Positions 6,768-18,375 are shown, numbered from the stretch's first letter. The stretch: 64,000 bases of DNA from a virus (IMGVR_UViG_3300037466_002980:160001-224000), one strand, 5' to 3'. A program made the numbers and translations. Notes: generated by a model from the letters alone, not told the origin.

Positions 6768-6790
6768 ATTTGCTATTTATCGCAATTTTT

Positions 6791-6866
6791 TGGCAGGGGC
6801 GGCAGGAATCGAACCTAGCTAACCACGGGTCAAAGCCGAGTATGCATACCATTGCATATCACCCCG
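6791..6866 (-). tRNA. tRNA-Gln(TTG)
   Basis: Loop CT-TTG-AC, T arm, GCCA end. Confidence 0.85.
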
Positions 6867-6874
6867 ATAAAAGG

Positions 6875-6939
6875 CAGAATGTTTGTTTTCACTGGTTTTG
6901 ATTAAAAGTCAAATAGTTTGAATTTGCTGTAAACATTCT
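6875..6939 (-). ncRNA. CAGCAA-stem RNA copy A, carrying a Lys(UUU) anticodon arm
   Basis: AGAATGTTT-ACAGCAA...TTTGA-CTTTTAA-TCAAA...AAACATTCTG. Confidence 0.65.
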
Positions 6940-6952
6940 TTAAAAATCAAAA

Positions 6953-7048
6953 CAGAATTCTTTTTATACAATGCACCATGTTTATGAGACATGAAACATC
7001 GATAGGAGTCGAACCTACTTTTCCAATATGGATTGCTGTAAGAATTCT
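6953..7048 (-). ncRNA. CAGCAA-stem RNA copy B, with T arm and CAU anticodon arm
   Basis: AGAATTCTT-ACAGCAA...GTAGG-TTCGACT-CCTAT...CATGT-CTCATAA-ACATG...AAGAATTCTG. Confidence 0.65.
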
Positions 7049-7056
7049 TAAAAACC

Positions 7057-7169
7057 TTCTAATATTACCGAGTGGTTGACTAGACACACTCTACGATTTA
7101 TCTTCGAAGATGCAGCTTCGTTGACTCACGGATAATCGCTAAATCCTATGTTGTCAGGTAATATCAGAA
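7057..7169 (-). ncRNA. Unidentified structured RNA
   Basis: 13-bp closing stem TTCTGATATTACC/GGTAATATTAGAA (G:U on minus strand). Confidence 0.45.
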
Positions 7170-7175
7170 TAAAAA

Positions 7176-7237
7176 TGGAGCGGTTCCACGGGTCGGACTG
7201 GTTACCGTGCGTCAGGAACGTTGACACTTTTCACTCC
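7176..7237 (-). ncRNA. Small GC-rich structured RNA, possible pseudoknot
   Basis: GGAGTG/CGCTCC closing stem, two hairpins, loop GTTCC complementary to 3' GGAAC. Confidence 0.45.
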
Positions 7238-7243
7238 AAAACT

Positions 7244-7320
7244 TGGTACGGACAGTGGGATTCGAACCCACACTTTACAGATTTTAAATCAGTTGACTCT
7301 ACCCATTGGCCTATGCCCGC
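7244..7320 (-). tRNA. tRNA-Leu(TAA), short variable arm
   Basis: Loop TT-TAA-AA, ACCA end. Confidence 0.85.
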
Positions 7321-7325
7321 AAATT

Positions 7326-7484
7326 CTATTTAAAACGTCGAAAAATTTCTTCTCGAACATCATCATAATCAATATCAAGTTCTCTTAATCTATCAAATTC
7401 ATTGGTGGCTTCATAATGCCACATTTTCACAAATGATTCAAATAAATCCAATAAGGCTGAATTTGATAAATCTTCTAATTTCAT
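7326..7484 (-). CDS. 52-aa hypothetical protein (not in ORF track)
   Basis: MKLEDLSNSALL...RRFK* exactly fills the gap between two tRNAs. Confidence 0.5.
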   Translation of the reverse strand: MKLEDLSNSALLDLFESFVKMWHYEATNEFDRLRELDIDYDDVREEIFRRFK

Positions 7485-7490
7485 AAATTC

Positions 7491-7565
7491 TGGTAGGGCT
7501 GGGGAATTTCGAAATCCCGGCCAACGGATTAAAAGTCCGCTGCTCTGCCTCTGAGCTACAACCCC
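7491..7565 (-). tRNA. tRNA-Lys(TTT)
   Basis: GCGGA-CTTTTAA-TCCGT, ACCA end. Confidence 0.9.
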
Positions 7566-7846
7566 AAAATCTCTAAATAATCTTTTAACACTTCATCGGG
7601 AAGATCGGTCCATAATCGAGAAAAATATCGGTGACTTCCTTTACCATTAAAGGGAAATTCGAGATCACAAGAATGAACATGTAATTCTATTTTTGCTCTA
7701 TCTTCATACACATTATATGATGGCCATATTGATTGAAATTTCTTAGAATTAGCCAATAACCAATCATTCTTATATTCGCCATTTCTTCGGCACATTGGTT
7801 GCCAGCCTTGTAATGCTAAGAATAATCTTTCTTCTCGGTATATCAT
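7556..7846 (-). CDS. Hypothetical protein
   Basis: ORF track; coupled to upstream ORF. Confidence 0.6.
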   Translation of the reverse strand: MIYREERLFLALQGWQPMCRRNGEYKNDWLLANSKKFQSIWPSYNVYEDRAKIELHVHSCDLEFPFNGKGSHRYFSRLWTDLPDEVLKDYLEILGL

Positions 7847-8097
7847 TTTTCAATTAGATGTCCAAATTTCAACTTAAATTGAAGAAACCAAGGTTTATAC
7901 CTTTCTCTTCCATTAAGTTTGAGTTCCCAATACGAAAACATCCATTGAACTGCCCAGCCTGTGCCATTTGCACGCCATCTGGGCCTATTAATTAAATATA
8001 CCTCTTCCTTACCGACATTATCGATTAGAGTTTGAATTATAGATTGCACTTCTGCGTTATCTATATCCGAATCTACAATCTTTAATTTTATCTTCAT
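7843..8097 (-). CDS. Hypothetical protein
   Basis: Start moved to ATG just after tRNA-Pro. Confidence 0.6.
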   Translation of the reverse strand: MKIKLKIVDSDIDNAEVQSIIQTLIDNVGKEEVYLINRPRWRANGTGWAVQWMFSYWELKLNGRERYKPWFLQFKLKFGHLIEK

Positions 8098-8173
8098 TGG
8101 TCTCCGTACCGGGATTTGAACCCGGACCATATCGCCCCGAACGATACATGCAACCAGATAACACTTTACAGAG
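8098..8173 (-). tRNA. tRNA-Pro(CGG)
   Basis: TATCG-TTCGGGG-CGATA, C1:G72, A73. Confidence 0.9.
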
Positions 8174-8178
8174 AAAAA

Positions 8179-8739
8179 TCAGATTAGATTTTCTGTTCGA
8201 AGGATATCAACAATTGAATCCTTTAATGTGACTTCTGTTCTAACGTTTAATTCAAGAACTTCATCGTTGATCTTGTTCTTCATTTTCTTGATATCAAGAA
8301 TTTCTTTCTTAAATTCTTCAATATCCTTGTCGGTAAATACACCTGTCTTCACAGAGTCTTCGTGATAGTAGGCTGCTTCTTTTCTATGACGAATCTTTTC
8401 TAATTTACCTTTGATTACTTCGACTTCTTCTGATTTCGGCGATTCAGACCAAACCTTAAGTTGTGCAATTTTCTTATCCATAAAAGCAAGTTCGGAAAGT
8501 TTTTCATTTACACCCGATATTGCATTAACTCGTCCAATTTCTTCCCTTAAGGCATATTGTGCCTTAAGAAGGTCTTTAGTTCTCTTAACCTTTAATAATG
8601 CTTCTTCACGTGCCTTACCAAGGATTTCCGAAACACTCTGAAATTCGTTTAAATCGATCGTAGATTCGATCTTAATTTCTTTAATTTGATCTTGAATTGC
8701 GACCTGAATTGCGTTTGCTTTGCGAAGTGTTACTTTCAT
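8179..8739 (-). CDS. Coiled-coil protein
   Basis: SD AAAGG; Lys/Glu-rich heptads. Confidence 0.75.
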   Translation of the reverse strand: MKVTLRKANAIQVAIQDQIKEIKIESTIDLNEFQSVSEILGKAREEALLKVKRTKDLLKAQYALREEIGRVNAISGVNEKLSELAFMDKKIAQLKVWSESPKSEEVEVIKGKLEKIRHRKEAAYYHEDSVKTGVFTDKDIEEFKKEILDIKKMKNKINDEVLELNVRTEVTLKDSIVDILRTENLI

Positions 8740-8770
8740 TCTAAAACCTTTCTAAATTTGTAATACAGTA

Positions 8771-8984
8771 AAAACGTATGGTAAGCAAATAGCCGGACAA
8801 AATGCAAAAAACATAGAGACCAAATAATTCTTACCCTAAACAACTTTCAATATACAGAGATTCTAATATTCCCGAAAATCAACAAACATGGCAGAGCCTT
8901 TTAGTTTCGGATCACTAGAATACGAATAGTGTTCAGAACCTAAAACCAAGGTTCTGGTTGCTATTCCTCATCTCCATACATTTT
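8771..8984 (-). ncRNA. Structured RNA with 7-nt-periodic UG tracts, upstream of coiled-coil gene
   Basis: Closing stem AAAATGTATGG/CCATACGTTTT; internal hairpin CAGAACCT/AGGTTCTG. Confidence 0.5.
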
Positions 8985-9064
8985 CACCGGTTAGTTTTCT
9001 ATGAAAACTAACAAAACTTATTCTATTTTAAAGTACACTATTTCTAATATACTTTAAAATAGTA

Positions 9065-9966
9065 GGACTGAGATTACATCCTTACTGATCGGTACCTCGT
9101 ATATTATTTCAATATCTTGCGGGATATTGATTCTTACGATATCCACTAGGTCTGTTTTCACAGTATCCTAGTCTACCGACAACATCGCCTTTTAAAGTCA
9201 GGCAGTAGACTTGACATGATATTCTACTCTATAATTTCCATTCCGTCTGCCTTGCGAGCAGTTCATTGGTGCTAACCAATTACGAAACATCTATTATAAA
9301 TCAACTTGGCCTTGCGAGCTTTCGTCGAACTTAGTTACCTTACGGTCTAAGTATTAGATGTCTTTCAAATATCACCGAGGCAGTCTTTGCATTTTAATAC
9401 ACGGTTGGAATCGAACCAACTGCTTTCTGTTAGGATACAGACACTCTACCAAATGAGTTACATTGCAACCTACTATGATGTGCTACCTCAGCTGCTATAT
9501 ACCTTGTTAGATACACAATACAGCACACCACGTATCTTTCATCTCGCGGATTACTCGATTGTCTTTCACGATATATGTCAAGAGTCTCGGCGTTTTCGCG
9601 TATCTTGCCATTTACCATTCAAACTGCATTCAAGCCCTTACTTGCGAGGTTCGGACAAGAACACTACCCTTTCTCATACCAATTAACAAATTGGTTTATT
9701 GTGAGGTCAGCACCACCTGTTACTCTCCGCCAACTAACGTTCCCTTTCGGCGTTTAAGTTGGCGTTCTTTCCACAACATTTGCTTTATTGTTACTTCGTC
9801 CGGTCTTATCAGACAAAGCTCCCTCACGGGAGTGAGCAGGCCTGCTTAATGATCCATTACTGGCGGTAGTATGTAGGCTTCCTACCTTTTTCACTCCTTG
9901 CGGAGATCCTTCTTCAATAACCAGCTGGGCGAACCATACTGGTTATTAGGGGTTCAAGCTCCCCGA
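9065..9966 (-). ncRNA. GOLLD-like giant RNA with embedded degenerate tRNA (~9388-9468)
   Basis: ~900 nt, GC-elevated, no credible ORF, many GNRA hairpins (GCAA, GTAA, GAAA, GTGA), 3' GTAATCTCAG, tRNA-cluster location; family call from memory of the consensus. Confidence 0.7.
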
Positions 9967-9972
9967 AATTCT

Positions 9973-10308
9973 TTACTTATATCTATACTGTTCTCTTATT
10001 CTTGTTTGTACTTCAGCATTATTATTTTTCTTCTTCATCCATTCATGAACAATGGGTGCCCAAATACTAATATGATTCCATGCATTTCCACCTTCACGAA
10101 CTAATCCGAGGTTTTCAAATGCTAAATCGTGACGACCATTTGCTTCCTCGTATTGTTTTCTTAATTTTTTCTGTCTAGTTTCACTAAGTTCGCTGGGATG
10201 AATGGATAATTTAACTCTTTCTTCGCGATCACCATAACGTCCATTCCATGACCAATCATAATTTTTATCTTTTGTTTTTTGTTTTTTGTTCATAGTGTTA
10301 ATCAACAA
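9973..10308 (-). CDS. Basic hypothetical protein
   Basis: ORF track; start may be ATG at ~10293. Confidence 0.6.
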   Translation of the reverse strand: MLINTMNKKQKTKDKNYDWSWNGRYGDREERVKLSIHPSELSETRQKKLRKQYEEANGRHDLAFENLGLVREGGNAWNHISIWAPIVHEWMKKKNNNAEVQTRIREQYRYK

Positions 10309-10316
10309 CAGACTCT

Positions 10317-10345
10317 AGTTTATAAAATTTTAGTTTACATGTCAA
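10317..10345 (-). promoter_or_regulatory. sigma70-type promoter
   Basis: TTGACA-17 nt-TAAACT. Confidence 0.7.
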
Positions 10346-10357
10346 CTTGATTTTTAA

Positions 10358-11149
10358 TTAATTAAATCCCAATTCTTTTCTAATCTTAGTTGCTGAAATA
10401 GACATGATACTTTCATCGAAAATTTCTTCTTCGATTTTATATCCAACATTTCGACCATATGTGATATTAACAATATTAGGTACTCTAATAATTTCAAATT
10501 GTCCTTGATAAATCGGATCTAAATCTTTCTTGATAAATTCTCTTGATTGGTCAAAAGAAAATGGATTACTTTCATTCCAATGTTGGCAATCACGAATCAT
10601 AATTGCAACCTGTCCTGTCTTAGCAATTGCTCTTTCAAATAAATTTCTATGACCTTTATGCCAAGGTTGCCATCTGCCGAGCATTTGAACTGTTTCTTTT
10701 TTCCAATCAAAAACAGGACGGCGTTTATCTTCTATAAGATGATGTCCAATAAATGAAGACCAAACTTCAGAATTTTGTTCAGTAATTCGAAAATCATACG
10801 AATCCGGATTGACAAACATCTTATTTGTATCTTCAAATCTTCCTTTTTCGATAGTATCGAGCCAAATAAACCAGTCTGCATTGAAATGATGTCTCATTTC
10901 AATCAATGGTGCAACAAAATCACAAATAACAAAGTCTGTGTTTTCTTGTTCAGCAAGTTCGGACATTCTCTTACTTTGACGGATTCTGCCTTCATAGGAA
11001 AAATCAAAATCATCAAACTTTGTTCTTATCTCGTCAGCGTTGAACCACGAAACTGTCTTATTATTTGTTTCGAGATATTCTTTTAATTTTCCGGCTAAAG
11101 TTGTCTTCCCGGCACCGGGTAAACCCATAATTAATATTTTCTTAGGCAT
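10358..11149 (-). CDS. APS kinase-like domain fused to HxGH nucleotidyltransferase domain
   Basis: GLPGAGKTT P-loop, NADEIR, FVAP; C-terminal GRWQPWHKGH and ISATKIR. Confidence 0.8.
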   Translation of the reverse strand: MPKKILIMGLPGAGKTTLAGKLKEYLETNNKTVSWFNADEIRTKFDDFDFSYEGRIRQSKRMSELAEQENTDFVICDFVAPLIEMRHHFNADWFIWLDTIEKGRFEDTNKMFVNPDSYDFRITEQNSEVWSSFIGHHLIEDKRRPVFDWKKETVQMLGRWQPWHKGHRNLFERAIAKTGQVAIMIRDCQHWNESNPFSFDQSREFIKKDLDPIYQGQFEIIRVPNIVNITYGRNVGYKIEEEIFDESIMSISATKIRKELGFN

Positions 11150-11507
11150 TTAAATTCCTTTTTTCCCACTTTTCACGTGCCTTCTTAATATCATACTGAA
11201 TTGCAGCAGCACAAGAAAATTGCATTCCTATTTGAAAATTACAATGATTTAATTTAAATGGTTTCAGTACTCTATCACCATTCCACCAACGACGTTCGGT
11301 TTTTATAAGTCCTTTTTCTTCGAGTTCATTTCGAAGTCTTGTAAATTCTGGATGATCAATACTAGAGTGGCAACTATAATCGCCTTTACCTTGAAGTAAT
11401 AAAATTATATCTTCTTCTGTCTTTTCTTTCTTTTCTTTAATGTAATTACCACTATAATGGATTTCTACTGATTTAAGAAATTGTTCGTCAATATAAAATT
11501 GTTTCAT
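11142..11507 (-). CDS. Hypothetical protein
   Basis: ORF track, operon-coupled. Confidence 0.65.
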   Translation of the reverse strand: MKQFYIDEQFLKSVEIHYSGNYIKEKKEKTEEDIILLLQGKGDYSCHSSIDHPEFTRLRNELEEKGLIKTERRWWNGDRVLKPFKLNHCNFQIGMQFSCAAAIQYDIKKAREKWEKRNLNA

Positions 11508-11520
11508 AATGTTCTATAAA

Positions 11521-11609
11521 TGGCGGAAAGTATAGGATTCGAACCTATGCATCCATTTTCTGAACGACAGTTTAGCAAACTGCTGCCTTAACCACTCGGC
11601 CAACTTTCC
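11521..11609 (-). tRNA. tRNA-Ser(GCT)
   Basis: Loop TT-GCT-AA, long variable arm, GCCA. Confidence 0.92.
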
Positions 11610-11612
11610 AAA

Positions 11613-11912
11613 TTAATTGTTATCCGATTTAGCAATTGCGCTCATAAGACATAATGCATTTATTCGCAATTCTTTTGTTTTTCTATTATCGGGATTTCCA
11701 AATACACCCTTAACGAGCGTGTTCTTATTTAATTGATTTTGAAACAAATATGCAATTGCCAGCGATTCCGGATCATTATAATCAAAAAATTTCATTGACA
11801 TTTGCTTCTTATGTTTTAACATGTAAATGGCATGACAAGCATACCTTGCTTTATTGGAAAATACCAATTCGGCTGCTTTTCTATATAATTCACTTTGTTT
11901 CATATCTATCAA
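11613..11912 (-). CDS. Hypothetical protein
   Basis: ORF track between tRNAs. Confidence 0.6.
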   Translation of the reverse strand: MIDMKQSELYRKAAELVFSNKARYACHAIYMLKHKKQMSMKFFDYNDPESLAIAYLFQNQLNKNTLVKGVFGNPDNRKTKELRINALCLMSAIAKSDNN

Positions 11913-11956
11913 TATTTGAATCTATATTATACCGTCTTAAATTTGAAATAGCAATT

Positions 11957-12031
11957 TGGCAAGGGCTGATGTATTCGAAACATCTACAATCACGCTCAGA
12001 ACGTGACGCGTCGCCATTCCGCCTAGCCCCA
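11957..12031 (-). tRNA. tRNA-Gln(CTG), atypical D region
   Basis: TCACG-TTCTGAG-CGTGA, GCCA. Confidence 0.75.
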
Positions 12032-12040
12032 ATAAATCTA

Positions 12041-12115
12041 TGGACCCGCTTAGAGGAATCAAACCTCTATCTTAAGTTTCGAAGACTTTTATATTATTCA
12101 TTATACGAAAGCGGG
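12041..12115 (-). tRNA. tRNA-Arg(TCG), divergent D/T loops
   Basis: Loop CT-TCG-AA; lacks D-loop GG; T loop TTTGATT. Confidence 0.7.
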
Positions 12116-12122
12116 AAAAATC

Positions 12123-12198
12123 TGGTGGAACACATGGGAGTCGAACCCACCTAATCTACCTTATGAGAGTAGTGCATCAGCCGCTCTGCCAATGTTCC
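12123..12198 (-). tRNA. tRNA-Met or Ile2 (CAT)
   Basis: Loop CT-CAT-AA, ACCA. Confidence 0.85.
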
Positions 12199-12203
12199 GA
12201 AAA

Positions 12204-12254
12204 CAGGTTACGTTTCTTTTTACCAAAATAGAATTAAATTGCCGAATGTAACCT
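12204..12254 (-). ncRNA. CAGCAA-stem RNA copy C (minimal, CGGCAA variant)
   Basis: AGGTTAC-ATT-CGGCAA...GTAACCTG. Confidence 0.55.
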
Positions 12255-12260
12255 TTAAAA

Positions 12261-12336
12261 TGGTGCTGCCTCGTGGAATCGAACCACGTTCACATGCTCT
12301 TCAGGCACGCGCTATGACCACATCAGCTAAAGCAGC
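12261..12336 (-). tRNA. tRNA-Phe(GAA)
   Basis: Loop CT-GAA-GA, ACCA. Confidence 0.9.
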
Positions 12337-12337
12337 A

Positions 12338-12691
12338 TTAATCTTTAAAGACATGTATTTCTTCTCTTTTCTTCTTTAATTTAACTTCTTGTTCATCATA
12401 ATGATGTTCGAGATAAAGAATTAAACCTTCGTCAAACGTCCAATTATTTTGTTTACAGAAATTACTAAACATTAGGAAATCTTTTGAATATGCTTCCGGC
12501 ACATAAATTTTTGATTGTTTTAGTAATTCTAAAAATTCAGTTGGCGGAGTTCTTTTAAGATGACGGAAAACTTTCTCATCTGCATTATTTGAACCATTCT
12601 GGAACATCTCTTTCCTTCCACGATGCAATTTCTTGCTTATATTTTTTATAATAATTTCTATAACTTTGAATAGGATCATCTGTCTTAACAT
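12338..12691 (-). CDS. Hypothetical protein (true start probably ~12607)
   Basis: ORF track; 5' part overlaps upstream gene. Confidence 0.5.
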   Translation of the reverse strand: MLRQMILFKVIEIIIKNISKKLHRGRKEMFQNGSNNADEKVFRHLKRTPPTEFLELLKQSKIYVPEAYSKDFLMFSNFCKQNNWTFDEGLILYLEHHYDEQEVKLKKKREEIHVFKD

Positions 12692-13046
12692 CCCCCGGCA
12701 TTGCTAATCTAAAAGGTGTTTTACCGATTGCAGGCAATGCAGGAACAGGTAATATTTGAATAACATCAAATGCCTTATGATTGATAGATTTCTTATATCT
12801 ATATTGATATTCTTTATTTAATTCTGTTGCTAAATCTCTTAACCATAACCAATTATCAAGTGATTCCCTAACCCAAATTGCACTAGGATGATTTTTATGT
12901 GTTATCTTGTAACCTATATCATTTCCCGATAATCTAACTGCTGTACTCAATAATTGAGCATATTCGGTAATCATCTTCACTACATGTTTATCTACATGGT
13001 AGGTTGCATTTAGATAATGATTATTGTCTAAATAAAAAATATTCAT
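12585..13046 (-). CDS. Pyrimidine-dimer DNA glycosylase/endonuclease V-like protein
   Basis: MNIFYLD...DKHVVKM..E.AQLLST, H.NHP..W motifs. Confidence 0.75.
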   Translation of the reverse strand: MNIFYLDNNHYLNATYHVDKHVVKMITEYAQLLSTAVRLSGNDIGYKITHKNHPSAIWVRESLDNWLWLRDLATELNKEYQYRYKKSINHKAFDVIQILPVPALPAIGKTPFRLAMPGDVKTDDPIQSYRNYYKKYKQEIASWKERDVPEWFK

Positions 13047-13240
13047 TCTATGTCTTTAGGACTAACTAAAATCCATCTAACATTTCCGGATGAATCTGAA
13101 AATTCTAATTCAATGCCATATTCGTTAATCTCCGAAATGGATCCTTCAACGCAATCAGAAACTAATTTCTTAATTGCAATTTGATCTTCTTCGGGAAGTC
13201 CATTAAGCAACTCCGGCGATGCTTGTTTTAGTTTTACCAT
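13043..13240 (-). CDS. Hypothetical protein
   Basis: Start moved downstream of tRNA-Gly. Confidence 0.55.
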   Translation of the reverse strand: MVKLKQASPELLNGLPEEDQIAIKKLVSDCVEGSISEINEYGIELEFSDSSGNVRWILVSPKDIE

Positions 13241-13256
13241 ATGTACTTGATTAATT

Positions 13257-13330
13257 TGGAGCGGGTAACGAGAATCGAACTCGTACGATAACCATGGCAA
13301 GGTCACAGGCAACCATTACATCATACCCGC
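13257..13330 (-). tRNA. tRNA-Gly(GCC)
   Basis: GCGGG start, loop TT-GCC-AT, TCCA. Confidence 0.9.
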
Positions 13331-13331
13331 A

Positions 13332-13571
13332 TTATTCTACTAATTTGTTTACTTCTTCGAAACTAATCTCTTGTAATGTTCTTTCGTTTAACCCTCGTCT
13401 GGGGTTAGAACACATCCAACAACTACATGGTTTTGGTGTATCTACAACCATTCCGAGTTGCCTTCCCGGATCTAACTCATTATTAATATGGTGCAAATCT
13501 TTACCCCAATAGAAACGACGTTTTTTCTTTAATCTTTCTATATGAGCTCTTCTTTCAGATCTATCTCTCAT
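13332..13571 (-). CDS. Small basic protein with CSCxxC motif
   Basis: SD AGGAG; PKPCSCWMCSNPRR. Confidence 0.7.
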   Translation of the reverse strand: MRDRSERRAHIERLKKKRRFYWGKDLHHINNELDPGRQLGMVVDTPKPCSCWMCSNPRRGLNERTLQEISFEEVNKLVE

Positions 13572-13581
13572 ATTATTCTCC

Positions 13582-13672
13582 TGGAGGAAGAAGGACGTAT
13601 CGAACGCCTACCGAAAAATATCGATACCTCTGTTTTCGAAACAGCGATGGGGACCTCCCCACAACATCTTCC
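13582..13672 (-). tRNA. tRNA-Ser(CGA) with tRNA-Sec-like 8/4 (allo-tRNA-type) fold
   Basis: 8-bp acceptor GGAAGATG/CTTCTTCC, 4-bp T stem, 6-bp D stem with 4-nt loop, long variable arm. Confidence 0.75.
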
Positions 13673-13681
13673 GATAAAATC

Positions 13682-13755
13682 TGGTAGGTCATGACAGAAT
13701 CGAACTGCCGTCATTGCCTTGTAAAAGCAAGGTTCTCCCATTAAACTAATGACCC
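13682..13755 (-). tRNA. tRNA-Val(TAC)
   Basis: Loop TT-TAC-AA, ACCA. Confidence 0.9.
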
Positions 13756-13770
13756 AATTTAATACTGTTT

Positions 13771-13799
13771 ATTCTAAATTATTTCAGAATGATTGTCAA
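13771..13799 (-). promoter_or_regulatory. Internal sigma70-type promoter
   Basis: TTGACA-17 nt-TAGAAT. Confidence 0.75.
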
Positions 13800-13800
13800 G

Positions 13801-13877
13801 TGGTACCCCTGGTAAGATTCGAACCTACAACCAACAACTTTTGAGGATGTCCGCACTACCAATTAGCGTACAGGGGC
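13801..13877 (-). tRNA. tRNA-Leu(CAA), short variable arm
   Basis: Loop CT-CAA-AA, ACCA. Confidence 0.8.
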
Positions 13878-13886
13878 ATTTTTATT

Positions 13887-13974
13887 TGGAGTGCCGTACT
13901 GGATTCTAACCAGTGTGGGATTTTAATCCATCAGTTTTGCAGACTGCTGCCTTCGTACGCTCGACCAACGGCAC
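13887..13974 (-). tRNA. tRNA-Cys(GCA) with long variable arm
   Basis: Loop CT-GCA-AA, U73, variable arm TGGATTAAAATCCCAC. Confidence 0.8.
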
Positions 13975-13980
13975 ATTATT

Positions 13981-14074
13981 TGGTGGGTGTTGTGGGTTAT
14001 CGAACCACGACCCCTATTATCCATATTCACTGGTAGTGATAGATAACAGTGCTCTCCCTCTGAGCTAAACTCCC
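13981..14074 (-). ncRNA. tRNA-like RNA with elongated anticodon arm and no canonical anticodon loop
   Basis: Acceptor, D and T arms and ACCA present; ~15-bp anticodon helix capped by ACC triloop. Confidence 0.7.
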
Positions 14075-14078
14075 AATA

Positions 14079-14282
14079 TTAGAATAAAATTCTATATCTA
14101 TATTGAATTCCACCTCGAATATATATTGCACTTGATGAACTCTTATCCTTTTGATAATTTCCATCATTTGTTATAGTAGGAAATAGATCCGAGGTAAGAT
14201 AAAATTTACCGTGTTCGAATTGCATTGAAGAACATCCGGTAGATAGTACACCGAACAGTACAATAGATAATAGGCGTTTCAT
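14079..14282 (-). CDS. Small lipoprotein-like protein
   Basis: MKRLL...LSTGC lipobox. Confidence 0.55.
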   Translation of the reverse strand: MKRLLSIVLFGVLSTGCSSMQFEHGKFYLTSDLFPTITNDGNYQKDKSSSSAIYIRGGIQYRYRILF

Positions 14283-14298
14283 TACATTATTTATTATC

Positions 14299-14374
14299 TG
14301 GGCGGTCATTACGGTTACGATCCGTTCTTACCTGTTTCACAGACAGGGGTGGTAGCCACTCCACTAAATGCCGC
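14299..14374 (-). tRNA. tRNA-His(GTG), atypical T loop
   Basis: CCTGT-CTGTGAA-ACAGG; G-1:C73. Confidence 0.8.
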
Positions 14375-14386
14375 ATAAATTCAAAA

Positions 14387-14507
14387 CAGGTTCGCATTTT
14401 TTAAGTTCTACCGCTAAACTAATGTGGCGACCAACTCACATCCGGGATTCGAACCCGGGCCTTCCTTTTACAATAAAGATATAATTTAAATTTGCTGAAA
14501 CGAACCT
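14387..14507 (-). ncRNA. CAGCAA-stem RNA copy D, YrlA-like permuted tRNA mimic
   Basis: AGGTTCG-TTT-CAGCAA, loop AT-TGT-AA, T arm, closed acceptor ATGTG/CACAT, D arm, CGAACCTG. Confidence 0.75.
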
Positions 14508-14512
14508 AATGG

Positions 14513-14932
14513 TCAATTCTTTTTTAATTCCTCAATCAATTCTTCTACATTGTAGAATACACCACTGGCAAATTGATACATGACATCCCAACGTTCGGGA
14601 TTGTCTAATAGGATATAACCAGGTTTTCCACAACCGATAACGTATCCTAATTCTAAATGTGCAGATTTTCCTGCAGGTAATGCTAGAACTGCGATATCAT
14701 TTCTGTCAAGGTGAAATTTATCGAAATTATAGACATGCTTCGCTGCATATCCTTGTAGAGCAGTTTTGTAATCATGCCCCTTTGCTTTCTCGTGATCTCT
14801 CCAACAGTCATCTGCATTCTCGGAAGCTGACCACCAATCATCAAATACTTCGTGTCCTGCATTTCGCAATTTATTAGCGATATTAACAATTTCTGTATTT
14901 CTTAATGAACCGATTAAATAAATGTTTGCCAT
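14513..14932 (-). CDS. Nucleoside 2-deoxyribosyltransferase-like protein
   Basis: IYLIGS...D...LPAGKSAHLELGY pattern. Confidence 0.65.
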   Translation of the reverse strand: MANIYLIGSLRNTEIVNIANKLRNAGHEVFDDWWSASENADDCWRDHEKAKGHDYKTALQGYAAKHVYNFDKFHLDRNDIAVLALPAGKSAHLELGYVIGCGKPGYILLDNPERWDVMYQFASGVFYNVEELIEELKKN

Positions 14933-15089
14933 AATGTAATACTTTAAAACAAATACTTATTTAATGCAAGATTCTTCATTTAGAATTACGAACATATTCA
15001 ATATATTGTTAGAAATTCTGTGATGGGGTTCACTTACGCCGGTACAATCCGGTTCCCATAACCCTCTGGGTAAACATAACAATATAATC

Positions 15090-15167
15090 TGGTACCCAAG
15101 GTGGGATTCGAACCCACACTGTACGGTTTCTAAAACCGGTGTCTCCTGCCAATTGCACTACTTGGGC
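15090..15167 (-). tRNA. tRNA-Leu(TAG), short variable arm
   Basis: Loop TT-TAG-AA, ACCA. Confidence 0.85.
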
Positions 15168-15244
15168 ATAAGGAATAGTAACAGATTCGTTCACATACGG
15201 CTCCCGCCTCCACTGTATATTCCTGTAAAATATTTCAAATAGAA

Positions 15245-15313
15245 TGGTTGTAGTGGACTCGAACCACCTCTCCCGCTTGAATGGCGAGTATCCTGCCCCT
15301 AGACGAACAACAT
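15245..15313 (-). pseudogene. Degenerate tRNA-Glu-like RNA (A33, 5-bp acceptor)
   Basis: CTCGC-CATTCAA-GCGGG, intact T arm, truncated acceptor. Confidence 0.55.
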
Positions 15314-15320
15314 ATTTGAA

Positions 15321-15444
15321 TTCTTAAGTATGATTACTCATACTGTCCATTGTCACTTCATTGACCTACTTTGATTGTGTTCCTTGCCATCGGTCGACGT
15401 TCGTTTCGCGACTCAGTTGGAAATAGACTAGCCATACTTAAGAA
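15321..15444 (-). ncRNA. Unidentified structured RNA
   Basis: Perfect 12-bp closing stem TTCTTAAGTATG/CATACTTAAGAA. Confidence 0.45.
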
Positions 15445-15446
15445 AT

Positions 15447-15520
15447 TGGCATCCCGGGAAGGACTCGAACCCTCACAAACAGTTTTGGAGACTGTGGTGC
15501 TGCCATTACACTACCGAGAT
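15447..15520 (-). tRNA. tRNA-Trp(CCA)
   Basis: ACAGT-CTCCAAA-ACTGT, GCCA. Confidence 0.92.
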
Positions 15521-15526
15521 AAAAAT

Positions 15527-15602
15527 TGGCTCCGGTGACTGGGATCGAACCAATGACCAACGGATTAACAATCCGCCGCTCTACCTACTGAGCTACACCG
15601 GA
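15527..15602 (-). tRNA. tRNA-Asn(GTT)
   Basis: TCC start, loop TT-GTT-AA, GCCA. Confidence 0.92.
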
Positions 15603-16106
15603 ATAAAAACATATTCTTTCAAATATTTCTATTGCATTTTCTTTTAAAATCCATTCTCCTGATTCATTTGTTATATTTGGATGTTGAAGTATTTGTTTTT
15701 CAACATCCTTTCTATTAAGAACAAAATCATATTTTTCAATCTTAAATCTTCGAAATGGATCATATGTCTGATATTGATTTAATCTTGTATTTAAATCAAG
15801 AGTCATTCCGATTTTGTAATGATCTTGATATATCGGATTAGAAATTATATATACCAATCCAGAATCGATATCGTTAAATTTTGCACCATATTGATAATTA
15901 ACCTTCAATAATGTTAATCCGGCTAATCGTCTTGCAAATCTATATTGATTTTTTCTTATTAAACCTTTATTTTTCTTATTAAATATTTTTCCATATATTT
16001 TTATATATTCATTAAGAATATTATCATTTATTTGAAATATATCTTTAGGAATCACAGAATTCGCTATCATTTCGTCGATAACAATTCTCTCAAATTCCTT
16101 CAACAT
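15585..16106 (-). CDS. GIY-YIG-like (T5orf172-type) endonuclease domain protein
   Basis: VYII...YKIGMT...R...YQT...GEW. Confidence 0.7.
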   Translation of the reverse strand: MLKEFERIVIDEMIANSVIPKDIFQINDNILNEYIKIYGKIFNKKNKGLIRKNQYRFARRLAGLTLLKVNYQYGAKFNDIDSGLVYIISNPIYQDHYKIGMTLDLNTRLNQYQTYDPFRRFKIEKYDFVLNRKDVEKQILQHPNITNESGEWILKENAIEIFERICFYSGVAQ

Positions 16107-16412
16107 TTAAACCTTACCTTTTAGAAAATTTGCTGTATCATCTTCATCGATTTCACTGTAGACAGGAATATCTGGATCTCTTCTTCCACCTAACCAACGA
16201 TATATTTTTGTCTGATAGAGTGAACTTTTACTTAAAGCAGCATCTAATGCTATTTTATGTCCATCTCTCATAATTTCGATTTTTCGATTACCACTATCAT
16301 TTTCATAACAATGAATATAATACTCCGTAGTATAATATCCATTTGATACCTTATGATTAAATGTTTTTACATGAACAAATTTTTCTTTTTTCTTAAACCA
16401 AGGAAAAATCAT
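16107..16412 (-). CDS. Hypothetical protein, paralog 2
   Basis: Shares RW..GR.DPDIP.Y.EIDE.DTAN.LKGKV with neighbour. Confidence 0.75.
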   Translation of the reverse strand: MIFPWFKKKEKFVHVKTFNHKVSNGYYTTEYYIHCYENDSGNRKIEIMRDGHKIALDAALSKSSLYQTKIYRWLGGRRDPDIPVYSEIDEDDTANFLKGKV

Positions 16413-16729
16413 ACCTTACCTTTCAGATAATTAGCAGTATCCTCTTCATCAATTTCATCATATTGTGGAATATCGGGATCTTTTCTTCCCAATTCCCACC
16501 GTCTAATTTTTTCATGATATATGGTTCGTTGATTTGCAATATATGCAAGATCTACTTTCTTTTCGTACGTCGAAGAAAATTCAACCTGTCTGTTATCTTT
16601 ATTAGATTGAAGTAAATTATAGTAAAAGGTAATATCAACTTCACCATCATGTGTGTTGAGTTTAAAATTTTCAGAAATTATTTTTACTAATTTCCATTTT
16701 TCTTTTTCAAATCTTTTAAATATCGACAT
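16409..16729 (-). CDS. Hypothetical protein, paralog 1
   Basis: Tandem paralog of 16107-16412. Confidence 0.75.
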   Translation of the reverse strand: MSIFKRFEKEKWKLVKIISENFKLNTHDGEVDITFYYNLLQSNKDNRQVEFSSTYEKKVDLAYIANQRTIYHEKIRRWELGRKDPDIPQYDEIDEEDTANYLKGKV

Positions 16730-16734
16730 ATTTT

Positions 16735-16808
16735 TGGTGCGGGTACCGGGAATCGAACTCGAGACTTCTGTTTGGAAGACAAATGTTATACCACTTAACT
16801 ATACACGC
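16735..16808 (-). tRNA. tRNA-Gly(TCC)
   Basis: Loop CT-TCC-AA, GCG start. Confidence 0.85.
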
Positions 16809-16820
16809 ATTAATTTAGAA

Positions 16821-16999
16821 TGTCAACTATGATTAATTTGCTTTCTTTCGCCACCTATTCCGTCGAAACGGTTTGGACTTACACCATGCTGATAGGCTAT
16901 TGCATTATTGCCGGAAGAATTTGAACCATTATCCTGAGCGAAATACTCTGTCGATAGTAATCAGCTATCCTAGCAAATCAAAAAATAATTATAGTCACA
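16821..16999 (-). ncRNA. Unidentified ~180-nt structured RNA
   Basis: Nested pairings GACTAT/ATAGTT, ATTTGCT/AGCAAAT, GCTGAT/ATCAGC. Confidence 0.45.
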
Positions 17000-17139
17000 T
17001 GGAAGATTTGATATCATGGCGTCCCAAGTATCATCACATTACCACTTACGTCTTCACTATGTAGAACTTCTCCAACACGTAGAGCTTCACACATAGGAGT
17101 AGAACCATATGACTCACTAGGAGCTACCTAATAGAAAAC

Positions 17140-17262
17140 TGGTCTCGCCTGAGGGAATCGAACCCCCTCCTCTCCCTTCTGATGGAATTGAAATTTAGTG
17201 CTGAACGAATTCTTAGACAGAATTGCTTTCGTTTAGCGTGCTAGCCGTTACACCAAGGCGAA
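17140..17262 (-). ncRNA. 123-nt tRNA-like RNA with CAGCA-stem module inserted in the anticodon arm
   Basis: Normal acceptor, D, T and ACCA; insert AATTCTG-TCTA-AGAATT-CGTT-CAGCAC; loop AT-CAG-AA. Confidence 0.7.
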
Positions 17263-17267
17263 AAATA

Positions 17268-17329
17268 TGGCAGGCCCTCATGAATCCGAGTATAAGGTTT
17301 TGGACATCATAGTGACATCGGGAGCGCCT
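17268..17329 (-). ncRNA. Small CCA-ended stem RNA
   Basis: AGGCGCTC/GAGGGCCT-GCCA, no T loop. Confidence 0.45.
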
Positions 17330-17342
17330 ATAAAATCATTAC

Positions 17343-17418
17343 TGGTAGGGGCACTGGGACTCGAACCCAAGAACTCACGGTTTAAGAGACCGGTACGTTA
17401 CCATTACGCCATACCCCC
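17343..17418 (-). tRNA. tRNA-Lys(CTT)
   Basis: Loop CT-CTT-AA, ACCA. Confidence 0.88.
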
Positions 17419-17488
17419 AAATCGAAATAGCGGCTTTCAAGACCGGTTTCAATAAATTTTGCAAATTTAATATATTTCGATCAAAAAT

Positions 17489-17567
17489 TGGCGTCCCTAC
17501 GGGGATTCGAACCCACGCTTTTTACCTTGAAAGGGTAACGTCCTCAAACCATATAGACGATAGAGAC
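17489..17567 (-). tRNA. tRNA-Glu(TTC)
   Basis: TTACC-CTTTCAA-GGTAA, GCCA. Confidence 0.9.
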
Positions 17568-17578
17568 AAGAAAAATAT

Positions 17579-17653
17579 TGGCATCCCGTAGGGGTTTCGA
17601 TCCTTCTCATTAGTTTGAAGGACTAACGGCCACGGCCAGCTGCCTCACGGGAT
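17579..17653 (-). tRNA. Atypical tRNA-Glu-like (C33, G8, A54)
   Basis: TTAGT-CCTTCAA-ACTAA; perfect acceptor ATCCCGT/ACGGGAT-GCCA. Confidence 0.65.
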
Positions 17654-17654
17654 A

Positions 17655-17954
17655 TTAAGGAATATAATCGAAAGGTCTATGATACTGATCTTTTCGATTA
17701 TCCATATAATTCATTATAAAAATTTGTGGAATTATGTGCATTCCTGGATCAAGTCGAAGTTTGAAAAATTCTAAACAGTCGTTCTCTTTTAATTCAACCT
17801 CAAAAATATTTCCATCAAAAATTCTAGCCAGAGAGTTATATCGAAATTCTATTTTCTTAACACCTAATCTTATTCTTGTTTTTTCGTAATCCGGCCAGTC
17901 ATCGGCGGGATAATTAACCGAAATTTCAATACCGATATATAAAATTCTAGACAT
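17655..17954 (-). CDS. Hypothetical protein
   Basis: ORF fills gap between tRNAs. Confidence 0.6.
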   Translation of the reverse strand: MSRILYIGIEISVNYPADDWPDYEKTRIRLGVKKIEFRYNSLARIFDGNIFEVELKENDCLEFFKLRLDPGMHIIPQIFIMNYMDNRKDQYHRPFDYIP

Positions 17955-17968
17955 GGTTGAATTATTAA

Positions 17969-18043
17969 TGGTGCTCCCGAAAGGAATCGAACCTTACGTC
18001 TTCGCGTTATCAGCACGCTGCTCTGCCATTGAGCTACAGGAGC
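17969..18043 (-). tRNA. tRNA-Ile(GAT)
   Basis: Loop CT-GAT-AA, ACCA. Confidence 0.9.
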
Positions 18044-18058
18044 AAAATTAAAATAGGA

Positions 18059-18195
18059 CAGGATCACTTTTTACGTTGCTCTACCAAACTGAGCTATTGC
18101 TTCGTTAAATGTAACAAAAATACACTTAACGAAGCAAGTGGGATTTGAACCCACGACCTACGGCTTGACATGCTAATGATTGCTGCAGGGATCCT
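18059..18195 (-). ncRNA. CAGCAA-stem RNA copy E, YrlA-like permuted tRNA mimic
   Basis: AGGATC-CCTG-CAGCAA, loop AT-GTC-AA, T arm, closed acceptor TTGCTTCGTTAA/TTAACGAAGCAA, D arm GCTC/GAGC, GATCCTG. Confidence 0.75.
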
Positions 18196-18203
18196 TTAAA
18201 AAC

Positions 18204-18278
18204 TGGTCAGGGAGCACAGAATCGAACTGTGTCTACGAGGCTCCAAAGCTCGGCGGCTAACCATTACCATACACCCTG
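18204..18278 (-). tRNA. tRNA-Pro(TGG)
   Basis: Loop TT-TGG-AG, C1:G72, A73. Confidence 0.85.
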
Positions 18279-18375
18279 AAAAACTTTGGTAGATTATATA
18301 CGCCATCATACCGGGGCAATTATCTAATGTAATAATGCAGATTGGAATAGGAAGTCTTTCTATATTACATCTAAC

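What the first reader, a model, noticed from the sequence alone, without database searches (positions are those of the whole stretch)
6875..18195. Family of CAGCAA-stem RNAs presenting different anticodon loops (Y-RNA-like permuted tRNA mimics)
Seen: five free copies (6875-6939, 6953-7048, 12204-12254, 14387-14507, 18059-18195) share 5'-AG(A/G)-stem, then C(A/G)GCAA, then cargo, then complementary stem-CTG-3'. Stem sequences differ but pairing is kept. Cargo includes anticodon-type loops CT-TTT-AA (Lys), CT-CAT-AA, AT-TGT-AA (Thr) and AT-GTC-AA (Asp). Two copies run T arm, closed acceptor, D arm, so they cannot be aminoacylated. Known: that topology defines bacterial YrlA Y RNAs, which bind Ro60; PrrC and PARIS AriB cut tRNA-Lys(UUU). 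Inference: a protein-binding handle carrying interchangeable anticodon baits, acting as decoys or sensors for host anticodon nucleases. No partner protein gene is in this window.
Basis: partly seen in the sequence, partly recalled or inferred. Interest (0 to 1): 0.8.

Follow-up and report, generated by a model that had tools for sequence, protein, structure and literature searches.

The report
Partner RNAs of phage Ro60-like protein
Five small RNA genes hidden among this giant phage's tRNA genes share one docking "handle" and carry different pieces of tRNA; they are most likely partners of a Ro60-shaped protein encoded elsewhere in the same phage, a pairing I found in neither Rfam nor the papers I could search.

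Summary
The five elements are AG-stem, unpaired (A/U)CRGCAA, variable cargo, stem', CUG. The stem covaries: 92% of cells pair, against 33-48% with slid partners.

The window lies in a complete 363-kb jumbo phage. That phage has no Pfam TROVE gene, but it encodes a DUF2828+DUF7788 protein 21-33 kb downstream on the same strand, with two further handles in its leader. Its AlphaFold model (pLDDT 91) matches full-length Ro60 structures first.

In 80 distant viral DUF2828 loci, a cargo-blind descriptor finds 133 handles on the gene's strand and 5 opposite, peaking within 1 kb of the gene. tRNA-array loci without the gene stay near background. Four of four near-complete records with remote handles encode DUF2828; none of ten large records without handles does.

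Cargo is enriched for anticodon-type loops (18 against 0.7 in shuffles) and T-loops (14 against 0).

The RNAs fail the YrlA and Dictyostelium Class I thresholds, so I call them a new variant of the Ro60/Y-RNA kind. The anticodon-nuclease decoy idea is untested. This scan has noted the same pairing before on other DNA (205 notes, at least 158 genomes).

The parts
6875..6939 (-). Handle RNA A (65 nt). 9-bp closing stem AGAAUGUUU/AAACAUUCU, unpaired ACAGCAA, cargo is one hairpin with the anticodon-type loop CUUUUAA, 3' CUG. It lies 9 nt upstream of tRNA-Gln(uug).
   Evidence: model R1 37.6 bits; Rfam Class I model 23.9 bits, end to end
6953..7048 (-). Handle RNA B (96 nt). 9-bp stem AGAAUUCUU/AAGAAUUCU, ACAGCAA; cargo is a small hairpin, a T arm (UAGG-UUCGACU-CCUA) and a hairpin with loop CUCAUAA; 3' CUGU.
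   Evidence: (z = -4.1); Class I model 22.8 bits
12204..12254 (-). Handle RNA C (51 nt). 7-bp stem AGGUUAC/GUAACCU, variant motif CGGCAA, minimal cargo, 3' CUGU. It is packed 5-6 nt from tRNA-Phe and tRNA-Met.
   Evidence: model R1 38.5 bits; Class I model 23.9 bits
14387..14507 (-). Handle RNA D (121 nt). 8-bp stem AGGUUCGU/GCGAACCU, UCAGCAA; cargo is a hairpin with loop AUUGUAA, then T arm, acceptor closed by a loop, and D arm (a permuted tRNA-like body); 3' CUGU. It lies 13 nt upstream of tRNA-His.
   Evidence: YrlA model positions 26-82, 18.6 bits; positional orthologue in relative G001 upstream of tRNA-His with the same stem
18059..18195 (-). Handle RNA E (137 nt). 6-bp stem AGGAUC/GAUCCU, GCAGCAA; cargo is a T arm, a long closed acceptor hairpin and a D arm (YrlA-type tRNA-like body); 3' CUGU. 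It lies between tRNA-Pro and tRNA-Ile.
   Evidence: (z = -6.8); YrlA model positions 23-87, 39.5 bits against a threshold of 69
2873..18877 (-). Context: the minus-strand tRNA array (27 tRNA genes in the window). The five handle RNAs sit in it with tRNA-like spacing. The array continues beyond the window's start, past further tRNAs, to handle RNAs F and G and the DUF2828 gene at genome 143,909-145,508.

Best explanation
The five elements are small non-coding RNAs of a Y-RNA-like family. Each has a common 'handle' and a variable cargo. The handle is a 6-9-bp helix formed by the RNA's 5' and 3' ends, an unpaired U-W-CAGCAA beginning exactly 10 nt after the first paired A, and a 3' CUG(U) tail.

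They are co-transcribed with the phage's tRNAs, sit 5-15 nt from neighbouring tRNAs, and are probably released by the same end-processing. This step is inferred.

The handle is the docking site for the phage's own Ro60-fold ring protein (DUF2828+DUF7788, 478 aa, with a complete vWA MIDAS motif). That protein is encoded on the same strand downstream in the same tRNA region. Binding is inferred from comparative evidence and not shown.

By analogy with Ro60 and Y RNA, the handle would hold the RNA on the ring. The cargo is built from tRNA parts: an anticodon-type hairpin, a T arm, or a whole T-acceptor-D body. It would give the particle a tRNA-like face, either to engage proteins that recognise tRNA or to gate access to the ring. 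The likely setting is tRNA or RNA quality control, repair or counter-defence during infection; this is the least certain step.

Two further handles lie in the leader of the protein's mRNA. One is degenerate and abuts the ribosome-binding site, which suggests the protein may also regulate its own synthesis (inferred).
For: - Family and covariation within this genome.
- Protein: Pfam DUF2828 90 bits and DUF7788 177 bits. AF2 pLDDT 91, pTM 0.90. The top 13 PDB matches are all full-length Ro60/TROVE (Xenopus, human, Deinococcus Rsr, Thermus phage phiLo; E 4e-8 to 6e-5, TM 0.5-0.63), and vWA-only hits follow at E >= 0.013. The MIDAS residues D268, S270, S272, T339 and D371 are invariant.
- Linkage: in 80 viral loci with 46-74% identical proteins (1.31 Mb) there are 133 descriptor hits on the gene's strand against 5 opposite; shuffles give 12-19 for both strands together; 65 of 80 loci are positive. 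Density is 5.3-6.3 per 10 kb within 1 kb of the gene, against 0-1.0 elsewhere. 28 of 40 loci without any tRNA still have handles.
- Control: 116 tRNA-array loci without DUF2828 (1.0 Mb, about 1,200 tRNAs) give 27 same-strand against 15 opposite-strand hits. Two of the three control loci that contain DUF2828 have 6 and 3 handles.
- Prediction test: 4 of 4 near-complete records with remote good handles encode DUF2828. 0 of 10 large tRNA-rich records without handle hits do.
- Features the descriptor did not constrain are conserved: the A-to-motif offset is 10 in 94 of 102 hits, and two U positions are 84-86% conserved.
- No protein family recurs among the 150 nearest ORFs, at most 3 of 150, so the RNA is the gene's only constant neighbour.
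- The same pairing occurs in Felix O1 (4 handles right after ORF86) and in mycobacteriophage Lumos (3 handles right after a DUF2828 'RNA-binding protein'; related mycobacteriophages label it 'Ro-like').
- The layout is the one published for Y RNAs, a 5'/3' stem flanking an unpaired motif (PMC4201824, PMC12135203).
Against: - There is no direct evidence of transcription, of RNA ends, or of binding. Everything rests on co-occurrence, adjacency, fold prediction and analogy.
- In this phage the five window copies lie 21-33 kb from the gene, so local linkage holds only for copies F and G.
- 15 of 80 DUF2828 loci showed no handle with my descriptor. The descriptor also misses known variants such as the Lumos type (UGG...CCAG).
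- My covariance model R1 is over-fitted. It found handles only in the closest relative among four DUF2828-positive records.
- I chose the 'good-looking' remote handles for the prediction test by eye, though before the test was run.
- What the particle does is unknown even for canonical bacterial Ro60-YrlA.
Confidence: 0.75

Rival explanations
1. The handle presents isolated anticodon loops as baits, and the RNAs act as decoys or sensors for host anticodon nucleases (PrrC, RloC, PARIS AriB, colicin-type enzymes). This protects the phage's and the host's tRNAs. It could be a sub-function of the Ro60-like particle rather than an alternative to it.
For: Cargo hairpins are strongly enriched for canonical 7-nt U33/R37 loops, 18 against 0.7 in shuffles with a maximum of 2. 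Loops of A and B are identical to tRNA-Lys(UUU) and tRNA-Met loops. The triplets seen across the family (UUU, GUU, GUA, UGU, UCU, CAU, GAA) include anticodons of tRNAs that I recall as anticodon-nuclease targets; that is my own knowledge, not tested here. Triplets change between orthologous elements of related phages while the loop geometry is kept, as an arms race would predict. The elements sit in a phage tRNA array, itself thought to counter tRNA-targeting defences.
Against: Only 18 of 108 members carry such a loop, and most have unrelated small hairpins. The orthologue of B replaces the loop with a UUCG hairpin. The stems do not copy any tRNA's anticodon stem. Many anticodon nucleases need modified bases or the whole tRNA body (own knowledge). 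Nothing here tests cleavage or protection.
Confidence: 0.12
2. They are true YrlA-type Y RNAs that work with a host-encoded canonical Ro60 (Rsr), not with the phage protein.
For: D and E share the T arm, closed acceptor, D arm body with YrlA, and E scores 39.5 bits on the YrlA model. YrlA RNAs are known in phages (PMC4201824).
Against: They score below Rfam's threshold of 69 bits, and the match covers only the tRNA-like core. The YrlA handle motif GNCGAAN0-1G is absent, and a different motif is conserved instead. A, B and C have no tRNA-like body. The handle tracks DUF2828 across phages of very different hosts. No TROVE gene is in the phage, and the host is unknown.
Confidence: 0.04
3. They are structural spacers or processing signals of the tRNA precursor (for RNase P, Z, E or III) with no protein partner of their own, and their link to DUF2828 is incidental.
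For: They are packed between tRNAs with 5-15-nt spacers on the tRNA strand. U-rich sequence often follows the 3' CUG.
Against: 116 phage tRNA-array loci without DUF2828 show only background. 28 of 40 DUF2828 loci with no tRNA nearby still have handles. The hits peak within 1 kb of the gene. A strictly conserved unpaired hexamer at a fixed distance from the helix end is not expected of a mere spacer.
Confidence: 0.05
4. They are phage counterparts of the Dictyostelium Class I RNAs in the strict sense: one RNA class shared by viruses, bacteria and social amoebae, acting through the RRM protein Rnp1A/CIBP or a similar factor rather than through a Ro60-like ring.
For: A, B and C align end to end with Rfam RF01414 at 22-24 bits. 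They share the G-C-closed stem, UUACAGCAA, a variable body and the 3' CUG. The paper reports conserved AAG starts and CUGU ends and a covarying 6-bp stem (PMC7919456), as seen here.
Against: They are below Rfam's threshold of 41.5 bits here, and in seven further loci holding about 19 short-cargo copies. At window scale the E-values are about 1. No RRM partner is evident. The eukaryotic promoter context does not apply. The authors found no Class I RNAs outside Dictyostelia.
Confidence: 0.04

Closest known systems
Ro60 (Rsr/TROVE) with Y RNAs, especially bacterial and phage YrlA (Rfam RF02553; Chen et al. 2014, PMC4201824) and Thermus phage phiLo Ro60 with Yrl1/Yrl2 (PMC12135203)
   Same: A ring protein of the Ro60 fold (HEAT-repeat ring plus vWA with MIDAS). 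Small RNAs encoded on the same strand next to the gene. A handle made of a 5'/3' terminal helix flanking an unpaired conserved motif. A modular second domain that in some members is a T arm, closed acceptor, D arm tRNA mimic. Several paralogous RNAs per genome.
   Different: The protein is not recognised by Pfam TROVE; it belongs to DUF2828+DUF7788. The unpaired motif is UWCAGCAA at a fixed 10-nt offset with a 3' CUG tail, not GNCGAAN0-1G or CGAA. Cargo is far more varied: lone anticodon-type hairpins, lone T arms, or tiny bodies. Copies are embedded in tRNA arrays, up to 33 kb from the gene. All score below Rfam's YrlA threshold.
Dictyostelium Class I RNAs (Rfam RF01414; Kjellin et al. 2021, PMC7919456)
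   Same: 42-65-nt RNAs with a short covarying stem joining the 5' and 3' ends. A conserved unpaired motif (CCUUACAGCAA) directly after the 5' strand. A variable body. Conserved AAG start and CUGU end. Many paralogues per genome. A, B and C align to the model over its whole length.
   Different: Scores are 22-24 bits, below the 41.5-bit threshold. The Class I RNAs are eukaryotic nuclear genes with a DUSE promoter. Their shown direct binder is an RRM protein (Rnp1A/CIBP). No tRNA-derived cargo is described for them. Whether Dictyostelia have a DUF2828-type protein could not be tested here. One pull-down protein, DDB_G0281243, is of unknown function.
tRNA and permuted or tRNA-like RNAs of phage tRNA arrays (Rfam RF00005)
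   Same: Cargo of D and E has canonical T and D arms. Cargo of A and B has canonical anticodon loops. The elements share genomic context and probably processing with the tRNAs.
   Different: The acceptor is closed by a loop and the body is opened between the D arm and the anticodon side, so they cannot be charged. E reaches only 25.8 bits on the tRNA model, against a threshold of 29. ARAGORN calls none of them.

Membership tests
YrlA (Rfam RF02553) | Score at or above Rfam's gathering threshold (69 bits) over the whole model | tested here: not met
   E scores 39.5 bits on model positions 23-87 only. D scores 18.6 bits on positions 26-82. A, B and C give no match.
YrlA (Rfam RF02553) | GNCGAAN0-1G motif near the 5' end (the proposed Ro60 contact; PMC4201824) | tested here: not met
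   The motif is absent from the handle region of all seven copies. UWCRGCAA is conserved there instead.
YrlA (Rfam RF02553) | tRNA-like domain: T arm, acceptor closed by a loop, D arm | tested here: met
   Met for D and E. Not met for A, B (T arm only) and C.
YrlA (Rfam RF02553) | Encoded within about 4 kb of, and on the same strand as, a TROVE-domain Ro60 gene | tested here: not met
   No PF05731 match in the complete 362.8-kb genome, while the control genomes ring. The Ro60-fold gene present is DUF2828, on the same strand but 21-33 kb from the window copies.
Y RNA in the broad sense (partner RNA of a Ro60-family ring) | 5' and 3' ends form a helix that flanks an unpaired conserved motif | tested here: met
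Y RNA in the broad sense (partner RNA of a Ro60-family ring) | Genomic linkage to a Ro60-fold protein gene across lineages | tested here: met
   133 against 5 strand-specific hits in 80 loci, peaking within 1 kb of the gene. Controls are near background. 4 of 4 against 0 of 10 at record level. Also seen in Felix O1 and Lumos.
Y RNA in the broad sense (partner RNA of a Ro60-family ring) | Physical binding to the ring protein | not testable with these tools
   Needs RIP/CLIP or a gel shift.
Dictyostelium Class I RNA (Rfam RF01414) | Score at or above Rfam's gathering threshold (41.5 bits) | tested here: not met
   A, B and C score 22.8-23.9 bits. No match at threshold in seven further loci holding about 19 short-cargo copies.
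Dictyostelium Class I RNA (Rfam RF01414) | Short covarying terminal stem, adjacent conserved motif ending ACAGCAA, variable body | tested here: met
   UUACAGCAA is exact in A, B and F. D and E carry CAGCAA, and C the variant CGGCAA.
Dictyostelium Class I RNA (Rfam RF01414) | Mature ends AAG... and ...CUGU; eukaryotic DUSE promoter about 60 nt upstream | tested here: inconclusive
   The sequence has (A/U)AG at the start of every copy and CUGU at the end of 4 of the 6 clean copies, but the RNA ends are not mapped. A DUSE promoter is not applicable to a phage operon.
Ro60/TROVE protein family (for the partner protein) | Pfam TROVE domain (PF05731) | tested here: not met
   Only DUF2828 and DUF7788 match.
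Ro60/TROVE protein family (for the partner protein) | Fold: HEAT-repeat ring followed by a vWA domain with a MIDAS motif | tested here: met
   The top 13 Foldseek PDB matches are full-length Ro60 structures. D-x-S-x-S, T and D are invariant in 52 homologues.

The most novel reading that the evidence does not exclude
The Ro60-like ring plus handle RNAs is a programmable bait system. Each RNA presents an isolated tRNA part (anticodon loop, T arm or tRNA elbow) to capture, sense or divert host tRNA-targeting defence nucleases. The swapping of anticodon triplets between orthologous RNAs of related phages records an arms race. A second reading is also not excluded: the unexplained Class I RNAs of Dictyostelium are eukaryotic members of the same RNA class and work with a DUF2828-type protein, and the uncharacterised pull-down protein DDB_G0281243 is the obvious candidate to check.
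Probability: 0.15. Interest if true: 0.9.

Novelty: new variant of a known kind. Interest (0 to 1): 0.72.

Why it matters
Ro60 and its Y RNAs are a classic but still poorly understood RNA-surveillance particle. Known bacterial and phage examples all use a TROVE protein and a GNCGAA/CGAA handle.

The evidence here points to a second, much larger branch. The DUF2828 family has more than 6,000 clusters at 50% identity and is present in 710 cultured phage genomes, including Felix O1-type phages and phages of Listeria, Staphylococcus, Enterococcus, Campylobacter and Mycobacterium. It comes with its own handle and with cargo assembled from tRNA parts.

That gives names and a testable partner to many unannotated gaps in phage tRNA arrays. 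It also offers cultivable systems for asking what Ro-like particles do during infection. It ties tRNA arrays, tRNA mimicry and possibly anti-defence into one system. Finally, it offers a concrete, quickly checkable hypothesis for the 20-year-old puzzle of the Dictyostelium Class I RNAs.

Tried and rejected
1. Rfam at gathering threshold finds none of the five. Only tRNAs, GOLLD and a permuted tmRNA are reported.
2. Pfam TROVE in the phage genome: no match.
3. Pfam on the eight ORFs downstream of A and B: no Ro-like protein there (subtilase, GNAT, RF-1 domain, DUF6171 zinc knuckle).
4. Sequence search of the DUF2828 protein against the PDB: only spurious repeat-protein hits. The Ro60 relation is visible by fold only.
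5. Handle-only covariance model R1. It recovers only the short-cargo copies A and C in the own genome, because long cargo is penalised. It finds handles only in the nearest relative and is too over-fitted for surveys. My own descriptor replaced it.
6. Descriptor candidates at genome 136.8 kb (a coding tandem repeat), window 57.0-57.2 kb and several others were rejected as chance. They lie in coding sequence and lack the conserved flanks.
7. Megablast of the array against cultured phages: only tRNA-sized hits.
8. Conserved protein neighbours of DUF2828: none.
9. Is DDB_G0281243, or any Dictyostelium protein, a DUF2828 protein? Not resolvable here. Avesson 2011 is not held, the proteome supplements are truncated and show no family motifs, and a search for longer homologues gave only one plant protein.
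10. The cargo stems are not copies of the phage's own tRNA anticodon stems.
11. MITE or mobile-element reading rejected: the copies differ in stem and cargo and keep only the RNA-level features.
12. Intrinsic-terminator reading rejected: the closing stems are AU-rich and enclose 20-110 nt of cargo.

Full report
**1. What is there**

The window is part of a complete 362,810-bp virus record with direct terminal repeats, window = 160,001-224,000. Its first 19 kb are a minus-strand tRNA array with 27 tRNAs, a permuted tmRNA and a GOLLD RNA. Genome-wide there are 45 tRNAs plus the tmRNA, all on the minus strand, 43 of them between 128.5 and 178.9 kb.

Read on that strand, the five elements have one architecture:
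- (A/U)-A-G starts a 6-9-bp helix.
- An unpaired (A/U)CRGCAA follows.
- Cargo of about 20-110 nt comes next.
- The complementary strand closes the helix, followed by CUG(U).

It also returns a sixth copy, F, at genome 145,414-145,508, with 13 hits in all against 3.8 in shuffles. A degenerate seventh copy, G, has CCGCAU in place of CAGCAA. It follows F and ends 3 nt before the Shine-Dalgarno sequence of the next gene.

Across the seven copies the helix pairs in 92% of cells, against 33-48% with slid partners, and 5 of 9 pairs show compensatory changes. All five window copies fold with the closing helix and leave the motif unpaired. They sit 5-15 nt from neighbouring tRNAs, like members of the array.

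**2. Cargo**

- A carries one hairpin with loop CUUUUAA.
- B carries a T arm plus a hairpin with loop CUCAUAA.
- C has almost no cargo.
- D and E carry T arm, closed acceptor, D arm. D also has an AUUGUAA hairpin.

The loops of A and B are identical to those of the phage's tRNA-Lys(UUU) and tRNA-Met, but the stems are unrelated. E matches the YrlA model only in its tRNA-like core (positions 23-87, 39.5 bits, threshold 69). D does so weakly, at 18.6 bits.

**3. The partner**

The genome has no Pfam TROVE match. It does have a 478-aa DUF2828+DUF7788 protein at genome 143,909-145,345 on the minus strand, directly downstream of F and G.

Sequence search against the PDB gave nothing meaningful. An AlphaFold2 model built on 52 diverse homologues (pLDDT 91, pTM 0.90) has full-length Ro60/TROVE structures as its top 13 Foldseek matches: Xenopus and human Ro60, Deinococcus Rsr and Thermus phage phiLo Ro60. 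vWA-only hits follow two to three orders of magnitude weaker. The MIDAS residues are invariant.

PHROG 850 calls the family 'RNA-binding protein', and some mycobacteriophage records call it 'Ro-like RNA binding protein'. The family is very large: 6,206 clusters at 50% identity and 710 cultured phage records.

**4. Does the handle go with the protein?**

- *DUF2828 loci.* I fetched 80 viral loci whose DUF2828 proteins are 46-74% identical to this one (1.31 Mb). They gave 133 descriptor hits on the gene's strand and 5 on the other. Shuffles gave 12-19 for both strands together. 65 of 80 loci were positive.
- *Position.* Hits peak within 1 kb upstream (6.3 per 10 kb) and downstream (5.3 per 10 kb) of the gene, against 0-1.0 farther out.
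- *Unconstrained features.* The A-to-motif distance is 10 nt in 94 of 102 distinct hits. Two U positions are 84-86% conserved, and a purine follows AG.
- *tRNA independence.* 28 of 40 loci without any tRNA still have handles.
- *Control.* I fetched 119 phage tRNA-array loci chosen only by two T-arm motifs one tRNA apart (1.03 Mb, 1,233 tRNAs). The 116 without a local DUF2828 gave 27 same-strand and 15 opposite-strand hits. Two of the three with DUF2828 gave 6 and 3 textbook handles.
- *Prediction test.* Five control loci had good-looking handles but no local gene; I picked them by eye before testing. Four of their records are at least 96% complete, and all four encode DUF2828 elsewhere. The fifth is a 17%-complete fragment. 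Ten large tRNA-rich records without handle hits have none. Fisher's exact p is about 0.001.
- *Neighbours.* No protein family recurs among the 150 ORFs nearest to DUF2828, at most 3 of 150. The RNA is the gene's only constant neighbour.

**5. Cultured examples**

Felix O1 has four handles (AGACC...UUACAGCAA...GGUCUG) in the tRNA array right after its DUF2828 gene, ORF86. One of them carries T-acceptor-D cargo.

In mycobacteriophage Lumos the protein annotated 'RNA-binding protein' is DUF2828+DUF7788, not TROVE. The gap after it holds three ACAGCAA handles whose outermost pair is flipped (U-A, ending CCAG). The middle one matches the YrlA model at 39.3 bits through its tRNA-like core, while the model's own handle segment is deleted or mismatched.

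Chen et al. 2014 covered phages annotated with a TROVE domain, such as ET08, and defined the handle as GNCGAAN0-1G. The phiLo study used a stem plus a CGAA bulge. The pairing seen here is therefore parallel to the published one. It has the same layout and the same tRNA-like module, but a different protein subfamily and a different handle motif.

I found no paper on DUF2828 or DUF7788 function, or on this RNA family. A jumbo-phage review mentions only ROT/TROVE proteins with a tRNA-like partner.

**6.

Its stated refutation test is not met. Among 122 cargo hairpins from 108 distinct family members:
- 44 have 7-nt loops (shuffles 6.0, maximum 13);
- 18 are U33/R37 loops that are not T-loops (shuffles 0.7, maximum 2);
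- 14 are T-loops (shuffles 0).

So tRNA parts are a real theme of the cargo. But only about one member in six has an anticodon-type loop.

In the 385-kb relative G001, positional orthologues keep the handle while the cargo changes:
- the orthologue of A keeps its loop geometry but changes the triplet from UUU to UCC;
- the orthologue of D keeps its loop geometry but changes the triplet from UGU to GUA;
- the orthologue of B has a UUCG hairpin instead of the CAU loop.

This fits either rapid diversification or weak constraint. It does not discriminate between them, and nothing here tests cleavage or protection.

**7. Dictyostelium Class I RNAs**

They share the closing G-C pair, UUACAGCAA, a variable body and the 3' CUG. 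The paper adds conserved AAG starts, CUGU ends and a covarying 6-bp stem, and reports no such RNAs outside Dictyostelia.

The scores are below Rfam's 41.5-bit threshold. Seven further loci with about 19 short-cargo copies also gave no threshold match. At window scale the E-values are about 1. Membership is therefore not met, and the resemblance is a lead only.

The DdR-21 pull-down recovered Rnp1A/CIBP, GuaB, NdkC and DDB_G0281243, the last described as of unknown function. I could not determine whether that protein, or any Dictyostelium protein, is of the DUF2828 type.

**8. Verdict**

These are most likely Y-RNA-like partner RNAs of a phage Ro60-fold protein. I class them as a new variant of a known kind of ribonucleoprotein, with modular tRNA-derived cargo.

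- *Shown:* the family, its covariation, the protein's fold, and strong strand-specific, distance-dependent and genome-level co-occurrence.
- *Inferred:* transcription and processing, binding, and any role in tRNA quality control or counter-defence.

This scan had already noted the same pairing on other DNA: 205 notes in at least 158 genomes by its index, including this genome's DUF2828 locus. I did not use those notes as evidence.

Noticed in passing
window 7049-7243 (-): A 195-nt gene-free stretch between tRNA-Leu(uaa) and element B. It folds into a hairpin plus a domain closed by a 13-bp 5'/3' stem, with an unpaired ...GUCAACGAAGC... that nearly matches the canonical Y-RNA GNCGAA motif. It has no CAGCAA handle, and z is only -2.0.
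   Followed up: partly
L003:2269-2314 (-) = genome 145,358-145,403 (outside the window): Degenerate handle G (CCGCAU instead of CAGCAA) ends 3 nt before the Shine-Dalgarno sequence of the DUF2828 gene. Relative G001 has a similar degenerate handle (CAGCAU) right before its DUF2828 start. This may be an autoregulatory operator.
   Followed up: partly
window 6495-6767 (-): A 90-aa protein with DUF6171 and a CCHC zinc knuckle, encoded just downstream of element A and tRNA-Gln. A zinc knuckle could bind RNA.
   Followed up: no
L209:5460-5800 (+) (Mycobacterium phage Lumos): Three ACAGCAA handle RNAs right after the DUF2828 gene have the outermost pair flipped (5' UGG... / ...CCA-G 3') relative to AG.../...CUG. 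This variant escapes my descriptor and shows the family is broader than I counted.
   Followed up: partly
L204-L208 (relative phage G001, 110-205 kb) against window elements A, B, D: Orthologous handle RNAs keep their stem and position, but the cargo triplet changes (UUU to UCC, UGU to GUA), or the anticodon-type loop is replaced by a UUCG hairpin.
   Followed up: partly
window 930-1424 (-) and 426-939 (-): A 164-aa ORF with RF-1 and PCRF domains (release-factor or ArfB-like) abuts the permuted two-piece tmRNA gene.
   Followed up: no
window 9065-9531 (-): A GOLLD RNA (199 bits) lies inside the tRNA array, with an embedded tRNA-like segment at 9401-9463.
   Followed up: no
genome 157,384-157,460 (-), outside the window: A tRNA with anticodon CUA (amber suppressor type; ARAGORN labels it Pyl) lies in the same array.
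   Followed up: no
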